Origin: Solirubrobacteraceae bacterium
Lineage (GTDB): Bacteria; Actinomycetota; Thermoleophilia; Solirubrobacterales; Solirubrobacteraceae
Assembly: GCA_035552235.1 (NCBI GenBank)
Contig: DASZLT010000040.1
Coordinates: 10,412 to 74,411 of the forward strand
Direction of reading: 5' to 3'
Length of the DNA stretch: 64,000 bases
The notes under the pieces were generated by a model. It was not told the DNA's origin, made no database searches, and was given only the letters and a program-made list of their open reading frames with translations. The position numbers were made by a program, and so were the translations under genes. Shown piece after piece: positions 2,802 to 20,138 of the stretch; position 1 is the first letter of the stretch, and each line of letters begins with the position of its first letter.

Positions 2802-4328
2802 CTATTGCAGGGACATCCGCTCGTAGGACAGGTAGAGGTGCGCGGCCCACGACTCCGGGTCGGCGGCGAAGTAACGCTGCAGCGCACCACCGTTCAGCGC
2901 GTCGTCGAGGGCGGCCATGATCATCGATTGATCGAGCACAAGGCGCCGGTGGCCGATCGACCCGGTGGTCGGGTTGACCGCGTCGTAGAAGCCGCCGTCG
3001 CTCGTATAGATGCCGGGGTAGTCGGCGCGCAGCGCGACCAGGTTGGCGTAGGCCTGCTCGGGCACGACCGGCAGCGCGATCGCTGAGGCATGCGGTGAGA
3101 CCGTGTCCTCGGTGGCACAGGTCGTGCACCAGGCGAGCGGTTCGTTGGCTCCGAACACCAGGCCCTCGACGCCGAACCCGCCGTAGCCGCCGGTGTCGTC
3201 CGCCGTGCTCGAGGGCGACAACCCCCACACCGGGTATCCCAGCGCTTCAGTCGCGTACCTGATCTGCACCTGCGCCCAGCGGAGGTCATCGAGGCCGAAG
3301 CTGTGCGGCCCCCAGGTCGTTTCGGGCACCACGAGGTTGGCCATCAGCCCCTCGAACATGCCGCCGGCGAAAGTCGGCACGAACGTCAGCGAGGTCCCGG
3401 GATAGGTGTAGTGGCCCTCCCAGACGCGGAACTGCTTGCCCGATTGCGGGTCGGTGTAGGTCTGCCAGTAGCCCGTCCCCGTGTAGGGGAAGGCCGGGTC
3501 GCTCGCGCACTGCTGTGGCGGCCAGGTGCGCCAGGTGCGCCACCACACGTCGCCCGGCATCTGGCGGCGCCCCATGCCGATGTACATGGAGATCCGCGGG
3601 TCGCTGTAGAGCGCGCCGTTGTGATAGCCGGCCGGTCCCTGGTCGACGTAGTAGCCGCCATACTGCTGGCCGGTCGGGGGGTTCCCGGGCAGGGATGCGT
3701 TCACGTTGCAATCGGTCTGCGCCCGGTTGTCATAGAAGATACTGAAGTCCATCGGCGCCAGCAGCCGATCGGCGAGCCCGCGGACCCCCGGCAGCGCCTG
3801 CCGAACCTCGATCAGGCCCGACGCGTACCAGCCGTTGTCGACCGCCGAGACGAACCAGCAGTTGTCCTGCGAGGGCGTCGTCTCGGTGCAGTCGCCCTGG
3901 CCAGGGTTGAGCAGCACGTTGCCGTTGTCGGTGTCGTACCACTGGTAGAGCATCCCGCCGAAGCGCTTGAGCGTCGTCACCTCCTCAAGCGTCGCGCTGG
4001 CGAGCTGATCGGCCCTCGCCGTGTCGATCAGCCCGAGATCGTGGGCCGCAACCACCGCCCACAGGTAGACGCCGATGTTGGCGGCCGAGGTGTATGTGCC
4101 GCGGACCGAACCTGGTCCGAGGTTGTCAAGCGGCAGATGGGTGACGGGGTCGACGTCGGCGCCATAGAACCTCCACGTGTCGGCGGCGATCTGGTGCAGC
4201 ACAGCCGCCTGGCCTGCCGTCCAGGTGGTCTGCTGGGCAGCCGCAGTTGCCGGTGCCCCCACGCTCACCGCGACCGCGATCCCGAGGATCGCGATCGCGG
4301 TCACGCACAGACGCGCGCGCAGGCGCAT
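2802..4328 (-). CDS. Secreted glucoamylase-like (DUF3131/Glycoamylase; Cgs-transglycosylase/GH144-like) beta-1,2-glucan-active enzyme
   Basis: Signal peptide; TSAANIGVYL, LYQWYDT, VSAVDNG, GGMFEGLM, WGLSPS, GFYDAVN, DQSMIM motifs. Confidence 0.75.
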   Translation of the reverse strand: MRLRARLCVTAIAILGIAVAVSVGAPATAAAQQTTWTAGQAAVLHQIAADTWRFYGADVDPVTHLPLDNLGPGSVRGTYTSAANIGVYLWAVVAAHDLGLIDTARADQLASATLEEVTTLKRFGGMLYQWYDTDNGNVLLNPGQGDCTETTPSQDNCWFVSAVDNGWYASGLIEVRQALPGVRGLADRLLAPMDFSIFYDNRAQTDCNVNASLPGNPPTGQQYGGYYVDQGPAGYHNGALYSDPRISMYIGMGRRQMPGDVWWRTWRTWPPQQCASDPAFPYTGTGYWQTYTDPQSGKQFRVWEGHYTYPGTSLTFVPTFAGGMFEGLMANLVVPETTWGPHSFGLDDLRWAQVQIRYATEALGYPVWGLSPSSTADDTGGYGGFGVEGLVFGANEPLAWCTTCATEDTVSPHASAIALPVVPEQAYANLVALRADYPGIYTSDGGFYDAVNPTTGSIGHRRLVLDQSMIMAALDDALNGGALQRYFAADPESWAAHLYLSYERMSLQ

Positions 4329-17815: not shown

Positions 17816-18279
17816 TCAGCTTCTGGGCGCCCCGCCGCTGCTGGGGCGCCCGAATCGCAGCTGGTTGCTATCCGGGTCGCGGATGCTGAACTCGCGGACG
17901 CCCCAGCGCTTGTCCAGTACCCGCTCGCTGATCATGCCCATGGCGTCCCCAGCCGCCCGGCGGCGGCGCGGTTCGGCGTTCATGTCGGCGGTGATCATCG
18001 TCCGGACCGGAATCGGTCGAGCGGACGCCATTGCGCGTGCAGTTCGTCGACCTCTGTCGTTTCCACATACACCTCGGAGTACGAGGAGAACAGGTCGAGC
18101 TCGGGGCTCGCCCGCAGGTGGATGCGCAGGCCCTCGCCTTCGGCGTATCCGTAACCGACGTCATGGCGCCGAACGCCGAAGCCGAGCAGCTCATAGAAGC
18201 GCATCGCCGTCTCCAGGCTGTGCGCCGGGAACACGGGGTCGGCGGATCCGATCCCGCTCTCGTGCTCCGCTCCTAACAT
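17816..18279 (-). pseudogene. VOC/bleomycin-resistance family protein, frameshifted near 18020
   Basis: N-half (PVFPAHSLETAMRFYELLGF..VDELHAQW) and C-half (DKRWGVREFSIRDPDSNQLRFG) are in different frames. Confidence 0.75.
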
Positions 18280-18339: not shown

Positions 18340-18444
18340 ATTAGGCTGCAGTCTTAATCATGAGAAGAATTAAGCTGCGAGCTTATGACGAGCTAAATGA
18401 AGGAAAATCCTTAATTTTGTGCTAGATTAAGCTGAGAGCATAAT
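18340..18444. repeat. Array of four 19-bp palindromes, consensus ATTAAG-N7-CTTAAT, period 29/28/29 bp
   Basis: Copies at 18340 ATTAGGCTGCAGTCTTAAT, 18369 ATTAAGCTGCGAGCTTATG, 18397 ATGAAGGAAAATCCTTAAT, 18426 ATTAAGCTGAGAGCATAAT; last copy overlaps the satD ATG. Confidence 0.85.
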
Positions 18445-19108
18445 GACTGAGGGCGCACATCAATTGCCCGTCACCCTCTTGGGAGACGTCGTCGAGTCCA
18501 AATCGCATCCCGACAGGGCACGCCTGCAAGCCGATCTGCGGGCGGCGCGCGTCGTCGTCGAGCGCTGCGTTGCTGCGATCCAGCCCCCCTATGTCACGGC
18601 GGGGGATGAGTTTCAGGGCGTCTACGCGAGCGTCGCCGATGCGGCCTTCGCGAGCATGCTCATGCGGCTTCAGTTGCTCGGAAGCGAGCTGCCTGCAGAC
18701 ACCAGGTACGGCCTCGGCATCGGCGAATTCACGGTCTTCGAGGGAGACTCGCCAACGATTGAGCAGGACGGTCCCGGCTGGTGGGCAGCCCGTGCGGCGA
18801 TCGACCAAGTCAAGCGGCTCGAGAGCCGTTCGCGCAGCGCGTCGCCGCATACCTGGGTCCGCCGCTGGGACGGTGATGATCCTCAGGTGAACATGGCCAA
18901 CGCGTTCTTGCTCACCAGGGATGCACTGATCGACGGGCTAAGCCCGCGGCAATGCCGGCTGATCGTCGACCTGATTCGCGGCAGCACCGCCGCACAGGCG
19001 GCCGCAAACGAGGGGATCACCGCGCCGGCGGCCTCGCAGACACTCAACACGAGTGGCGCCTACGCGCTGCTCGATGCCCATCGCGCGTTCGCCGAGGCCT
19101 ACGCATGA
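18443..19108 (+). CDS. satD: SatD family protein (nucleotidyl-cyclase-like palm + C-terminal HTH)
   Basis: LLGDVVES, TAGDEFQG, RYGLGIG, DGPGWWAARAA, and HTH TAAQAAANEGITAPAASQ. Confidence 0.85.
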   Translation: MTEGAHQLPVTLLGDVVESKSHPDRARLQADLRAARVVVERCVAAIQPPYVTAGDEFQGVYASVADAAFASMLMRLQLLGSELPADTRYGLGIGEFTVFEGDSPTIEQDGPGWWAARAAIDQVKRLESRSRSASPHTWVRRWDGDDPQVNMANAFLLTRDALIDGLSPRQCRLIVDLIRGSTAAQAAANEGITAPAASQTLNTSGAYALLDAHRAFAEAYA

Positions 19109-19854
19109 GCGTCGTCTCGATCGTGCTGCTCGGCTTCGGCCTCGCCGATCTCGTTAGCGCTTCGCTCCCAGCGCGGGCGCGCCCGATGACCGTCGCGGCG
19201 GTCATCGCGCTATGGCTGGTGGCGTGGGCCTACGTGCTTGGCCTCGTCAGCTGGCAGCCATGGGCCTTGGGCGCGGCGATGCTGCTGCCGCTCGGCGCCT
19301 GGCTGGTCGCTGAGGCAGATTCGGCAGCCAACGCGGGCGGGGGCGTCGTTGCTCCCCGCCGCCAGCTCGCGCTCGTGTCGGGTGTGATCGCGCTGTCACT
19401 GATCCTGGCGGGCCGCTTCCCCGACGTCGACGGACCCTTCGCCCGTTGGTTCGCCCGCCTGCCTCTCAACGTGATCCACCAGGTGAGCCCCGCTCAGGCG
19501 GCGCTGGCCCTCGCAGCAGCCGTCTTCATGCTGCATGCCACCAACCGCATCATCCGACTGGTCCTGGCTGTGGTCGGAGCCGAGATCGAAGCCGGTCAGA
19601 ACAAACTCAAGGGCGGGCGCTACATCGGACCGATCGAGCGCCTGATCGTCGCGGCGCTGATACTGGCGGGCAGCCTCGAGGGCGCCGGCCTGATCATCGC
19701 CGCGAAGGGCTTTATCCGCCTCCCCGAGATCCGTTCTGAGACCGAGAAGAAGGACGGGGCCGGCGACTCGGTCGCCGAGTACTTCCTGATCGGAACGCTC
19801 ACGAGCATCGCGATCGCGGCGGCGCTGGCCGCGCTGATCCTGGCAGCCTATTAG
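19105..19854 (+). CDS. DUF3307-like multi-pass membrane protein (SatD partner)
   Basis: GRYIGPIERL, IIAAKGFIRLPE, AEYFLIGTLTS; ATGA overlap with satD. Confidence 0.75.
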   Translation: MSVVSIVLLGFGLADLVSASLPARARPMTVAAVIALWLVAWAYVLGLVSWQPWALGAAMLLPLGAWLVAEADSAANAGGGVVAPRRQLALVSGVIALSLILAGRFPDVDGPFARWFARLPLNVIHQVSPAQAALALAAAVFMLHATNRIIRLVLAVVGAEIEAGQNKLKGGRYIGPIERLIVAALILAGSLEGAGLIIAAKGFIRLPEIRSETEKKDGAGDSVAEYFLIGTLTSIAIAAALAALILAAY

Positions 19855-19856
19855 CG

Positions 19857-20138
19857 GTGGCCGCCGGTCTCGAGATCATCCTTGACCGCCTACGGCGCGT
19901 GCCCGAGGGCTTCGTGACCACCTACGGCGACCTCTCGCCGGGGGCGCCGCGCCAGGCCGGCCGTGCCCTGGCCGTCTCCACCGACGAGAGCCTGCCGTGG
20001 TGGCGTGTGGTCCACAGCGACGGCAGCTGGGCCAAGGGCGAGCGCCAGCGTCAACTGCTCGAGGCCGACGGCATCCCCATCAGCGGCGAGCGCGTCGTGA
20101 TGAAGGCGGCCCGGATCGACCCCGAGGCCATCCTCTGA
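19857..20138 (+). CDS. Alkyltransferase-like protein (MGMT family, Atl/YbaZ type)
   Basis: VPEGFVTTYGDL, PRQAGRAL, LPWWRVV (Trp replaces catalytic Cys), QRQLLEADG. Confidence 0.88.
   Translation: MAAGLEIILDRLRRVPEGFVTTYGDLSPGAPRQAGRALAVSTDESLPWWRVVHSDGSWAKGERQRQLLEADGIPISGERVVMKAARIDPEAIL

What the first reader, a model, noticed from the sequence alone, without database searches (positions are those of the whole stretch)
18340..19854. SatD (cyclase-like palm + HTH) and membrane partner behind a four-copy periodic palindrome array: candidate undescribed nucleotide-signalling module
Seen: an AT-rich 105-bp stretch in a ~70% GC region made of four 19-bp palindromes (ATTAAG-N7-CTTAAT, period 29/28/29). 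The last copy overlaps an extended -10 (TGcTAGATT) and the ATG. SatD keeps both acidic motifs of class III cyclase/GGDEF/Cas10-like palms (GDVVES, AGDEFQG) plus an HTH, and is translationally coupled to a DUF3307-like TM protein. Known: SatD function is unresolved beyond an acid-tolerance link in Streptococcus mutans. Inference: an autoregulated nucleotide synthase or sensor plus a TM effector, like second-messenger stress or defence systems, with SatD binding the array cooperatively.
Basis: partly seen in the sequence, partly recalled or inferred. Interest (0 to 1): 0.8.

Follow-up and report, generated by a model that had tools for sequence, protein, structure and literature searches.

The report
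Self-regulated cyclase-fold SatD with membrane partner
A two-gene cassette encodes a DNA-binding protein built on a nucleotide-cyclase fold, which most likely shuts off its own promoter through four evenly spaced binding sites, together with an unannotated membrane protein; the layout is conserved across Actinomycetota but nobody knows its signal or its job.

Summary
Four 19-bp near-palindromes (ATTAAG-N7-CTTAAT, 1-2 mismatches each) lie at 18340, 18369, 18397 and 18426. They are the only such sites in the 2.07-Mb assembly. They sit in a 36% GC island directly before satD (18443-19108), which overlaps a 249-aa membrane-protein gene by ATGA.

Phased palindromes 28-29 bp apart precede 38 of 80 actinobacterial satD genes, against 0 of 400 shuffles. 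Their half-sites differ between lineages, change on both arms together, and track SatD's recognition helix. In relatives one site holds the -10 box and abuts a leaderless start codon. SatD is therefore very probably its own repressor.

SatD residues 6-160 are predicted to fold as a class III cyclase/GGDEF-type palm (Z 11-12.7). Asp15 and Asp55 align with the two metal-binding aspartates.

The partner is not DUF3307. It belongs to a large family without a Pfam model and with no recognisable fold.

Nucleotide synthesis, an effector role for the partner and any defence role remain untested, and I found no computational support for defence.

This scan has already reported SatD cassettes with about 29-bp operator arrays in at least 40 other genomes. 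I found no paper on the mechanism.

The parts
18340..18358 (.). Operator site O1, ATTAGGCTGCAGTCTTAAT
   Evidence: The site is kept at the same position in relatives L083-L086.
18369..18387 (.). Operator site O2, ATTAAGCTGCGAGCTTATG
18397..18415 (.). Operator site O3, ATGAAGGAAAATCCTTAAT. It is the best conserved site in the clade and lies over the expected -35 region.
   Evidence: The overlap with the -35 region is inferred from spacing.
18426..18444 (.). Operator site O4, ATTAAGCTGAGAGCATAAT. It overlaps the -10 box, the likely transcription start and the ATG.
18420..18428 (+). Candidate extended -10 box, TGCTAGATT
   Evidence: Read from the sequence. TGnTA(G/A)ATT is kept in 4 of 5 close relatives. 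The consensus promoter scan found nothing, so this part is inferred.
18443..19108 (+). satD, 221 aa
   Evidence: Pfam PF16264, E 3e-12. 167 homologues. AlphaFold model with pLDDT 92.
18458..18922 (+). SatD palm domain (residues 6-160) with invariant Asp15, Gly54-Asp55-Glu56 and Arg117
   Evidence: Foldseek E 2.6e-5 to GGDEF and class III cyclases. VIA Z 11-12.7. Rv1900c alignment. Invariant columns.
18938..19057 (+). SatD C-terminal helix-turn-helix (residues about 166-205), recognition helix TAPAASQTLNT
   Evidence: Model helices 168-178, 183-189 and 194-204. Weak sigma region 4 matches. Covariation with half-sites.
19105..19854 (+). Membrane partner, 249 aa, about 8 transmembrane helices, start overlapping the satD stop (ATGA)
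   Evidence: Its family has 2754 clusters at E<=1e-10 and no Pfam model.

Best explanation
SatD is the dedicated repressor of its own two-gene operon. SatD dimers bind through a sigma-region-4-like helix-turn-helix to four 6-N7-6 operators set 28-29 bp apart. O3 and O4 cover the -35 region, the -10 box, the transcription start and the ATG, so a filled array keeps RNA polymerase off. The fixed spacing suggests contacts between neighbouring dimers, that is cooperative binding.

The N-terminal cyclase-type palm keeps its metal and phosphate-binding residues. It most likely binds a nucleotide plus a divalent metal, or turns one over slowly, and so sets how tightly SatD holds the DNA.

The translationally coupled membrane protein is the regulated cargo. 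Its conserved charged motifs appear to face the cytoplasm, so it may also feed information back to SatD.

Shown by comparative evidence: the array, its conservation, its privacy to this promoter, the fold, the conserved residues and the gene pairing.
Inferred: repression, cooperativity, nucleotide binding and the partner's role.

Sub-odds: autoregulation by SatD 0.85; the palm binds a nucleotide 0.5; the palm is a true signal-making enzyme 0.2-0.25.
For: Array conservation:
- Two or more same-half-site palindromes 27-30 bp apart occur before 38 of 80 satD genes. The controls give 0 of 400 dinucleotide shuffles and 6 of 240 other windows.
- The spacings are 28 bp (79 times), 29 bp (15) and 30 bp (1).

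Half-site variation:
- Half-sites differ by lineage: TGAAG, TTCAG, AT[CA]AG, ATTAG, ATAGG, GCAAG and TTAAG. Both arms change together.
- At orthologous positions L083 has ATGAAG..CTTCAT where the window has ATTAAG..CTTAAT.

Link to SatD's own helix:
- Each half-site class has its own recognition helix.
- At 35-45% palm identity, helix identity is 0.67-0.69 for pairs with the same half-site and 0.49-0.50 for pairs with different ones. The adjacent linker shows no such gap, 0.39-0.40 against 0.37-0.38.

Privacy of the motif:
- It occurs only at this promoter in the window's own genome.
- In a complete 4.6-Mb Nocardioides genome there are three array sites and one stray.

Promoter overlap:
- In 28 of 62 arrays one operator's spacer holds TANNNT and an in-frame start codon follows, most often 6 nt after the box (24 of 28).

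Distant relatives:
- Divergent SatDs at 21-26% identity keep the 28-29 bp spacing with quite different half-sites, and keep the same kind of partner.

Fold and pairing:
- Fold and metal-binding aspartates.
- A homologous partner lies directly downstream in about 74 of 80 loci.
Against: - No binding, expression or ligand data exist. All evidence is comparative, and related loci are not independent samples.
- The window's own sites are imperfect, and its -10 box is read by eye; the consensus scan found no promoter.
- A spacing of 28-29 bp is not a whole number of helical turns, so simple same-face cooperativity does not follow.
- The residue at the position where cyclases carry the catalytic Asn seems to be Trp113. 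This is a motif reading from memory, not a structural alignment. It leaves the chemistry open.
- The partner's function is entirely unknown.
Confidence: 0.6

Rival explanations
1. SatD is an active nucleotidyl cyclase or synthase. Its product is sensed by the membrane partner, which acts as receptor or effector, making a new second-messenger pair. DNA binding serves only for autoregulation.
For: - The palm fold has both metal-binding aspartates, the DxxGS phosphate loop and an invariant Arg117.
- These residues survive even in SatDs at 21-26% identity.
- The partner's invariant Arg, Lys and Glu residues cluster at the predicted cytoplasmic face.
- The pairing is strict.
Against: - No Pfam cyclase or GGDEF match even at E 10.
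- The best structural neighbour is a hydrolase, GTP cyclohydrolase III, so the fold does not fix the chemistry.
- The expected catalytic Asn seems to be replaced by Trp (motif reading).
- The partner shows no known nucleotide-binding domain.
Confidence: 0.2
2. The pair is a toxin-antitoxin-like or abortive-infection-like module. The membrane protein is harmful when overproduced. SatD is the tightly autoregulating repressor or antidote that keeps it low until a trigger arrives.
For: - Patchy distribution: full-length SatD in 4 of 201 genomes of the window's own taxonomic family and in none of 24 other genomes of its genus searched.
- The cassette sits in unrelated neighbourhoods.
- Regulator and membrane protein are translationally coupled behind a multi-operator promoter.
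- Earlier notes place DUF3307-type cassettes inside restriction loci.
Against: - No PADLOC or PHROG hit.
- No phage copy and a single plasmid copy.
- The flanks here are cysteine/methionine metabolism, an alkyltransferase-like gene and a sigma factor, and they are syntenic in L083.
- In L083 satD appears frameshifted while the partner is intact. That is unexpected if the partner were toxic, unless the frameshift is a sequencing error.
Confidence: 0.1
3. The palindromes are not SatD operators. They are bound by another regulator, or are a chance or structural feature of an AT-rich promoter.
For: No direct binding data. The window's sites are imperfect.
Against: - The motif is unique to this promoter genome-wide.
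- Half-sites covary with SatD's own recognition helix beyond overall divergence.
- No other DNA-binding gene is conserved at the loci.
- 0 of 400 shuffles reproduce the pattern.
- No Rfam family or tandem repeat explains the region.
Confidence: 0.05

Closest known systems
SatD family (Pfam PF16264), named after satD of the Streptococcus mutans ylxM-ffh-satCDE cluster (Kremer et al. 2001, cited in PMC12077213)
   Same: It scores above the Pfam cut-off, and all 120 listed homologues carry PF16264. The design matches: a palm domain plus an HTH, followed by a membrane protein. Earlier notes of this scan report operator arrays about 29 bp apart in other phyla as well.
   Different: The partner here is not DUF3307 but an unannotated family of about 250 aa. 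The Pfam model matches only SatD's N-terminal half (positions 2-114 of 211). No function or mechanism is published for the family in the library I could search. The S. mutans cluster is linked to acid tolerance through ffh.
Class III nucleotidyl cyclases (for example M. tuberculosis Rv1900c, PDB 1ybt; Rv1625c, 7yz9) and GGDEF diguanylate cyclases (for example DosC, 4zvf)
   Same: The predicted fold matches over about 140 residues (Z 11-12.7, rmsd 2.5-3.8 A). Asp15 in DVVxS aligns with the Asp of DIVGST, and Asp55 in GDEF aligns with the Asp of GD.
   Different: There is no Pfam-level sequence match. The domain is fused to an HTH. The first Gly of GG[DE]EF is absent. The catalytic Asn is probably replaced by Trp (motif reading). 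Activity is unknown.
PucR/CdaR-type regulators (a GGDEF-like domain followed by an HTH)
   Same: They are transcription factors in which a cyclase-type fold serves as a regulatory or dimerisation module next to a C-terminal HTH.
   Different: I did not test this here. SatD is much smaller, keeps the acidic metal-binding residues, has a sigma-r4-like HTH, and always travels with a membrane protein.
Leaderless-gene promoters of Actinomycetota (-10 TANNNT about 6-7 nt before the start codon)
   Same: In 28 of 62 related arrays the -10 box sits inside an operator spacer, most often 6 nt before an in-frame ATG or GTG (24 of 28).
   Different: In the window the candidate -10 box (TAGATT) ends 14 nt before the ATG, so a leader of about 8 nt is expected (reading).

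Membership tests
Pfam SatD (PF16264) | HMM score above the gathering cut-off | tested here: met
   47.1 bits against 29, E 3e-12. The genome-wide scan gives the same single hit.
Pfam SatD (PF16264) | Full-length match including the C-terminal HTH half of the model | tested here: inconclusive
   Only model positions 2-114 of 211 are matched. Homologues align over the full length with each other.
SatD/DUF3307 cassette | Downstream partner is a DUF3307 (PF11750) protein with His/Asp motifs | tested here: not met
   No PF11750 hit for the partner or for 32 relatives. hhalign of A2 against A4 gives probability 0.15%. The motifs H..GD[FY].LQ, PH..QDD and DQ.FH of true DUF3307 proteins are absent from A2.
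Class III nucleotidyl cyclase | Palm fold of the cyclase homology domain | tested here: met
   Foldseek probability 1.0, E down to 2.6e-5. VIA Z 11-12.7 over residues 6-165. One side is a predicted model.
Class III nucleotidyl cyclase | Two metal-binding aspartates (strand 1 and the beta2-beta3 hairpin) | tested here: met
   Asp15 and Asp55 are invariant. They align with DIVGST and GD of Rv1900c at a borderline E of 0.024.
Class III nucleotidyl cyclase | Catalytic Asn/Arg pair on helix 4 and base-specifying residues | tested here: inconclusive
   Arg117 is invariant. Trp113 appears to lie where the Asn is expected, but this is a motif reading, because the HMMER alignment stops at position 98.
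Class III nucleotidyl cyclase | Pfam Guanylate_cyc match | tested here: not met
   No such hit even at E 10.
Class III nucleotidyl cyclase | Cyclase activity | not testable with these tools
   This needs an enzyme assay.
GGDEF diguanylate cyclase | GG[DE]EF signature | tested here: not met
   SatD has [AVI]-G-D-E-F, so the first Gly is missing. There is no PF00990 hit. The fold match is met.
Known anti-phage defence systems (PADLOC 2.0) | Match of either protein to a defence-system model | tested here: not met
   No hit at E 0.01.
Actinobacterial leaderless promoter | -10 TANNNT ending 6-7 nt before the start codon | tested here: not met
   In the window TAGATT ends at 18428 and the ATG is at 18443. 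The feature is met in 28 of 62 related arrays.

The most novel reading that the evidence does not exclude
SatD is a nucleotide-converting enzyme scaffolded by DNA. The fixed 28-29 bp operator spacing places the palm domains of neighbouring dimers face to face, as cyclase and GGDEF domains need for catalysis. The filled operator array would then be the active enzyme, or the product would release it from the DNA. The unannotated membrane-protein family (about 2,750 clusters at E<=1e-10) would be the receptor. Together they would form an undescribed two-component nucleotide signalling system of Actinomycetota.
Probability: 0.1. Interest if true: 0.85.

Novelty: new variant of a known kind. Interest (0 to 1): 0.55.

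Why it matters
- SatD is a database-named but unstudied family found in many phyla.
- This locus gives a concrete, testable model: defined operators, a predicted promoter, residues to mutate (Asp15, Asp55/Glu56, Arg117) and a recognition code linking helix to half-site.
- In Actinomycetota the usual DUF3307 partner is replaced by a different, large, unannotated membrane-protein family with no known fold. The regulator, rather than one particular partner, therefore looks like the constant part of the module.
- If the palm proves to be an enzyme or a nucleotide sensor, this would be a new way of coupling nucleotide state to transcription and to a membrane function.

Tried and rejected
- DUF3307 identity of the partner: rejected.
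- Fold of the partner: no informative match. Foldseek on PDB gives a best E of 1.1. VIA over 48,161 chains gives a best Z of 7.0 on helical fragments, which is noise level. The ESM Atlas returns only its own unnamed actinobacterial clusters.
- Defence or phage origin: no PADLOC, PHROG or phage hit.
- RNA element or tandem repeat as an explanation of the AT-rich stretch: nothing above threshold in Rfam. TRF does not see the 29-bp spacing because only the half-sites are kept.
- Consensus sigma-70 promoter and terminator scan: nothing found.
- A conserved third gene: none. In Nocardioidaceae glnE lies upstream, elsewhere other genes do.
- Fused, longer SatD forms: none found, which is weak evidence.
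- An all-against-all BLAST of flanking ORFs timed out.
- Literature: nothing on SatD's mechanism in the searchable library. Kremer et al. 2001 is not held.
- The relaxed array criterion (up to 2 mismatches, two sites) was dropped because controls reached it often. Only the strict test is quoted.

Full report
**The observation.**
- The stretch 18340-18444 holds four matches to ATTAAG-N7-CTTAAT, at 18340, 18369, 18397 and 18426. They carry 1, 2, 1 and 1 mismatches and are spaced 29/28/29 bp.
- Dinucleotide-preserving shuffles of the window give 0.02 such matches.
- The same four sites are the only matches in the whole 2.07-Mb assembly. That assembly is a metagenome-assembled genome rated 57% complete.
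- GC content drops to 0.36 here, against about 0.68 on both sides.
- TGCTAGATT lies at 18420-28, and site O4 overlaps the ATG at 18443.
- satD runs from 18443 to 19108 (221 aa). The next gene starts inside its stop codon (ATGA at 19105) and runs to 19854.

**SatD.**
- Pfam SatD matches above its cut-off, but only over the N-terminal half of the model.
- 167 homologues were found. They are mostly from Actinomycetota, and some also carry sigma-70 region 4, GerE or other HTH models at the C-terminus.
- In a 39-sequence alignment Asp15, Ser19, Arg25, Gly54-Asp55-Glu56, Gln58, Arg88, Gly90/92/94, Gly110, Trp113-Trp114 and Arg117 are invariant.
- Asp15, GDE, the glycines and Arg117 stay invariant when two SatDs of only 21-26% identity are added.
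- The AlphaFold model is confident, with pLDDT 92 and pTM 0.90.
- Foldseek places residues about 10-160 with GGDEF domains and class III cyclases: 80 hits at E<=1e-3, the best 2.6e-5.
- VIA gives Z 11-12.7 over 117-147 residues. The matches are GTP cyclohydrolase III, Rv1625c, RhoGC, bPAC, mammalian adenylyl cyclases, a GGEEF domain and a Cas10 subunit.
- A profile of the N-terminal domain finds Rv1900c (1ybt) at a borderline E of 0.024. In that alignment SatD's D-V-V-G-S lies on D-I-V-G-S-T and its G-D-E-F lies on G-D-G-F. Asp15 and Asp55 are therefore the counterparts of the two metal-binding aspartates.
- From memory of the cyclase helix-4 motif, Arg117 would be the transition-state Arg and Trp113 would sit where the catalytic Asn is expected. 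I could not check this with a superposition.

**The array is a family-wide feature.**
- I fetched 80 loci encoding SatD relatives from species-representative genomes. All are Actinomycetota.
- I anchored each locus on the Asp15 codon. Most show two to four palindromes of the form 5/6-N7-5/6 in an AT-rich stretch before the gene.
- The strict test asks for two or more palindromes with the same half-site, at most 1 mismatch each, 27-30 bp apart, within 200 nt. It is met by 38 of 80 loci, 0 of 400 dinucleotide shuffles of the same regions, and 6 of 240 other windows of the same loci.
- In credible arrays the spacing is 28 bp (79 times), 29 bp (15) or 30 bp (1).
- Half-sites differ between lineages and always change on both arms. 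TGAAG/CTTCA is the commonest. Others are TTCAG/CTGAA, AT[CA]AG/CT[GT]AT, ATTAG/CTAAT, ATAGG/CCTAT and GCAAG/CTTGC. The window's clade has TTAAG/CTTAA.
- In four close relatives the four sites lie at orthologous positions. In the syntenic locus L083 they read ATGAAG..CTTCAT where the window reads ATTAAG..CTTAAT.
- Two very divergent SatDs from the window's own taxonomic family keep the spacing with unrelated half-sites. One has GTTGCA-N9-TGCAAC at 29 bp and the other CACAAC-N7-GTTGTG at 28 bp.

**Who binds the array?**
- SatD is the only DNA-binding protein conserved at these loci.
- Each half-site class goes with its own recognition helix:
  - TGAAG with S[AP]SAVSQR.R.DG
  - TTCAG with KSAVSQ[QA]F
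  - AT[CA]AG with TQSAVSQ[NAL]L
  - ATAGG with TQPSVAERL
  - GCAAG with SRQAVQQRR
  - TTAAG (the window) with TAPAASQTL
- Among pairs of loci with 35-45% identity in the palm domain, recognition-helix identity is 0.67-0.69 when the half-site is shared and 0.49-0.50 when it is not. The neighbouring linker shows no such difference, 0.39-0.40 against 0.37-0.38. These pairs are not independent, so the comparison is descriptive only.
- The operator motif is private to the satD promoter. It has no other copy in the window's genome. A complete 4.6-Mb Nocardioides genome holds three array sites and one isolated stray.
- A global regulator is therefore unlikely.

**Promoter logic.**
- In 28 of 62 credible arrays one operator's 7-nt spacer contains TANNNT, and an in-frame ATG or GTG follows, most often 6 nt after the box (24 of 28).
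- This is the usual geometry of leaderless actinobacterial genes (established knowledge).
- In those loci one operator lies 28 bp upstream, over the -35 region. Another often lies 28 bp downstream, inside the first codons.
- In the window's clade the arrangement is shifted. The candidate extended -10 box (TGCTAGATT) straddles the left arm of O4, the start would fall near 18435, and the ATG sits in O4's right arm.
- In both arrangements bound SatD would occlude RNA polymerase. This is an inference.

**The partner.**
- A homologous membrane protein follows satD directly in about 74 of 80 loci, usually with a 4-nt overlap. It also follows the two divergent SatDs.
- Its alignment has invariant Asp15, Trp66, Asn147, Gly171-Arg172, Gly175, Glu178-Arg179, Lys201, Arg205 and Glu225. 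The motifs are LKGGRxxGPxER, AAKGxxRFPE and EYFLxGS.
- It is not DUF3307. Neither the partner nor 32 relatives hit Pfam. A profile-profile comparison with true DUF3307 proteins gives probability 0.15%. A real DUF3307 gene lies on another contig.
- The model is confident at pLDDT 91, but it has no meaningful match in the PDB. The ESM Atlas returns only its own unnamed actinobacterial clusters.
- The family is large: 5947 clusters at E<=1e-3 and 2754 at E<=1e-10.
- By hydropathy and the positive-inside rule the conserved charged motifs lie at the cytoplasmic ends of the last three helices. This is an inference.

**Context and distribution.**
- The flanking genes are cystathionine beta-synthase-like and gamma-lyase-like genes, a small divergent ORF, an alkyltransferase-like gene, YjbR, an ECF-type sigma factor and an MFS transporter. 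L083 shares this synteny.
- Other relatives sit in unrelated neighbourhoods.
- Full-length SatD was found in 4 of 201 genomes sampled from the window's family. It was found in none of 24 other genomes of its genus with the protein query. Many of those genomes are incomplete, so this means "not found in those searched".
- One plasmid copy and no phage copy were found. There are no PADLOC or PHROG hits.
- No claim here rests on the unpublished genome G041.

**Earlier notes and literature.**
- This scan has reported SatD cassettes with about 29-bp operator arrays in at least 40 other genomes, mostly with DUF3307 partners. A few actinobacterial cases have a partner of unknown fold.
- I treated these notes as leads. 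My tests agree with them.
- In the searchable literature SatD appears only as part of the S. mutans SatCDE-Ffh-YlxM cluster linked to acid tolerance (PMC12077213, citing Kremer et al. 2001), or as an annotation label (PMC10326533).

**Verdict.**
- Autoregulation through a phased operator array is strongly supported by comparison.
- The cyclase-type palm with intact metal-binding residues is supported.
- The DUF3307 label is wrong.

Noticed in passing
window 19857-20138 (+): A 93-aa protein with the MGMT DNA-binding domain (PF01035, E 1e-10) starts 2 nt after the partner's stop. It reads PWWRV where methyltransferases have PCHRV, so it looks like an alkyltransferase-like (ATL) protein without the active-site Cys. 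A DNA_binding_1 gene also follows the partner in L083, and a 73-aa gene with no Pfam look-up lies at the same spot in L086.
   Followed up: partly
L083:3337-4004: In the syntenic relative, satD is split into two overlapping frames (3337-3594 and 3543-4004). The partner gene and the TGAAG-type operators are intact. This is either a pseudogene or a long-read assembly error. No gene was called there.
   Followed up: partly
G000:C52:13873-14235 (L088): A true DUF3307 gene (132 aa; motifs H..GDY.LQT, PH..QDD, DQ.LH) lies 82 bp from a contig end and is unlinked to satD. Stand-alone DUF3307 genes of about 130 aa occur in 24 of 61 genomes searched (G000 included) that lack SatD.
   Followed up: partly
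window 17995-18279 (-): A 94-aa ORF with no Pfam hit is transcribed divergently. Its start lies 61 bp from O1, so the array might also act on its promoter. Small minus-strand genes lie upstream of satD in L083 (91 aa) and L086 (158 aa).
   Followed up: no
L115:1395-1475 and L116:1430-1476: Divergent SatDs (21-26% identity) in the window's taxonomic family have arrays with the same 29/28-bp spacing but other half-sites (GTTGCA-N9-TGCAAC and CACAAC-N7-GTTGTG). They are followed by shorter partners (205-231 aa) with the same GRxIGxxER / AAKxxxRxP / AEYxLxG motifs.
   Followed up: partly
L052, L040, L058 and others, first 10 codons of satD: In many TGAAG-type loci a third operator lies inside the coding sequence, 28 bp after the -10 operator. 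This explains the recurrent N-terminal M..MK....S peptide: here DNA-level constraint shapes the protein sequence.
   Followed up: partly
L052:119-2965 and similar Nocardioidaceae loci: In L052 satD lies immediately downstream of glnE (glutamine synthetase adenylyltransferase). About 18 loci share the same upstream gene end (...NDYLR..RRA..VV...FW*). This looks like lineage synteny, not a shared feature of the family; L040, for example, has an IF-2B-family gene there.
   Followed up: partly
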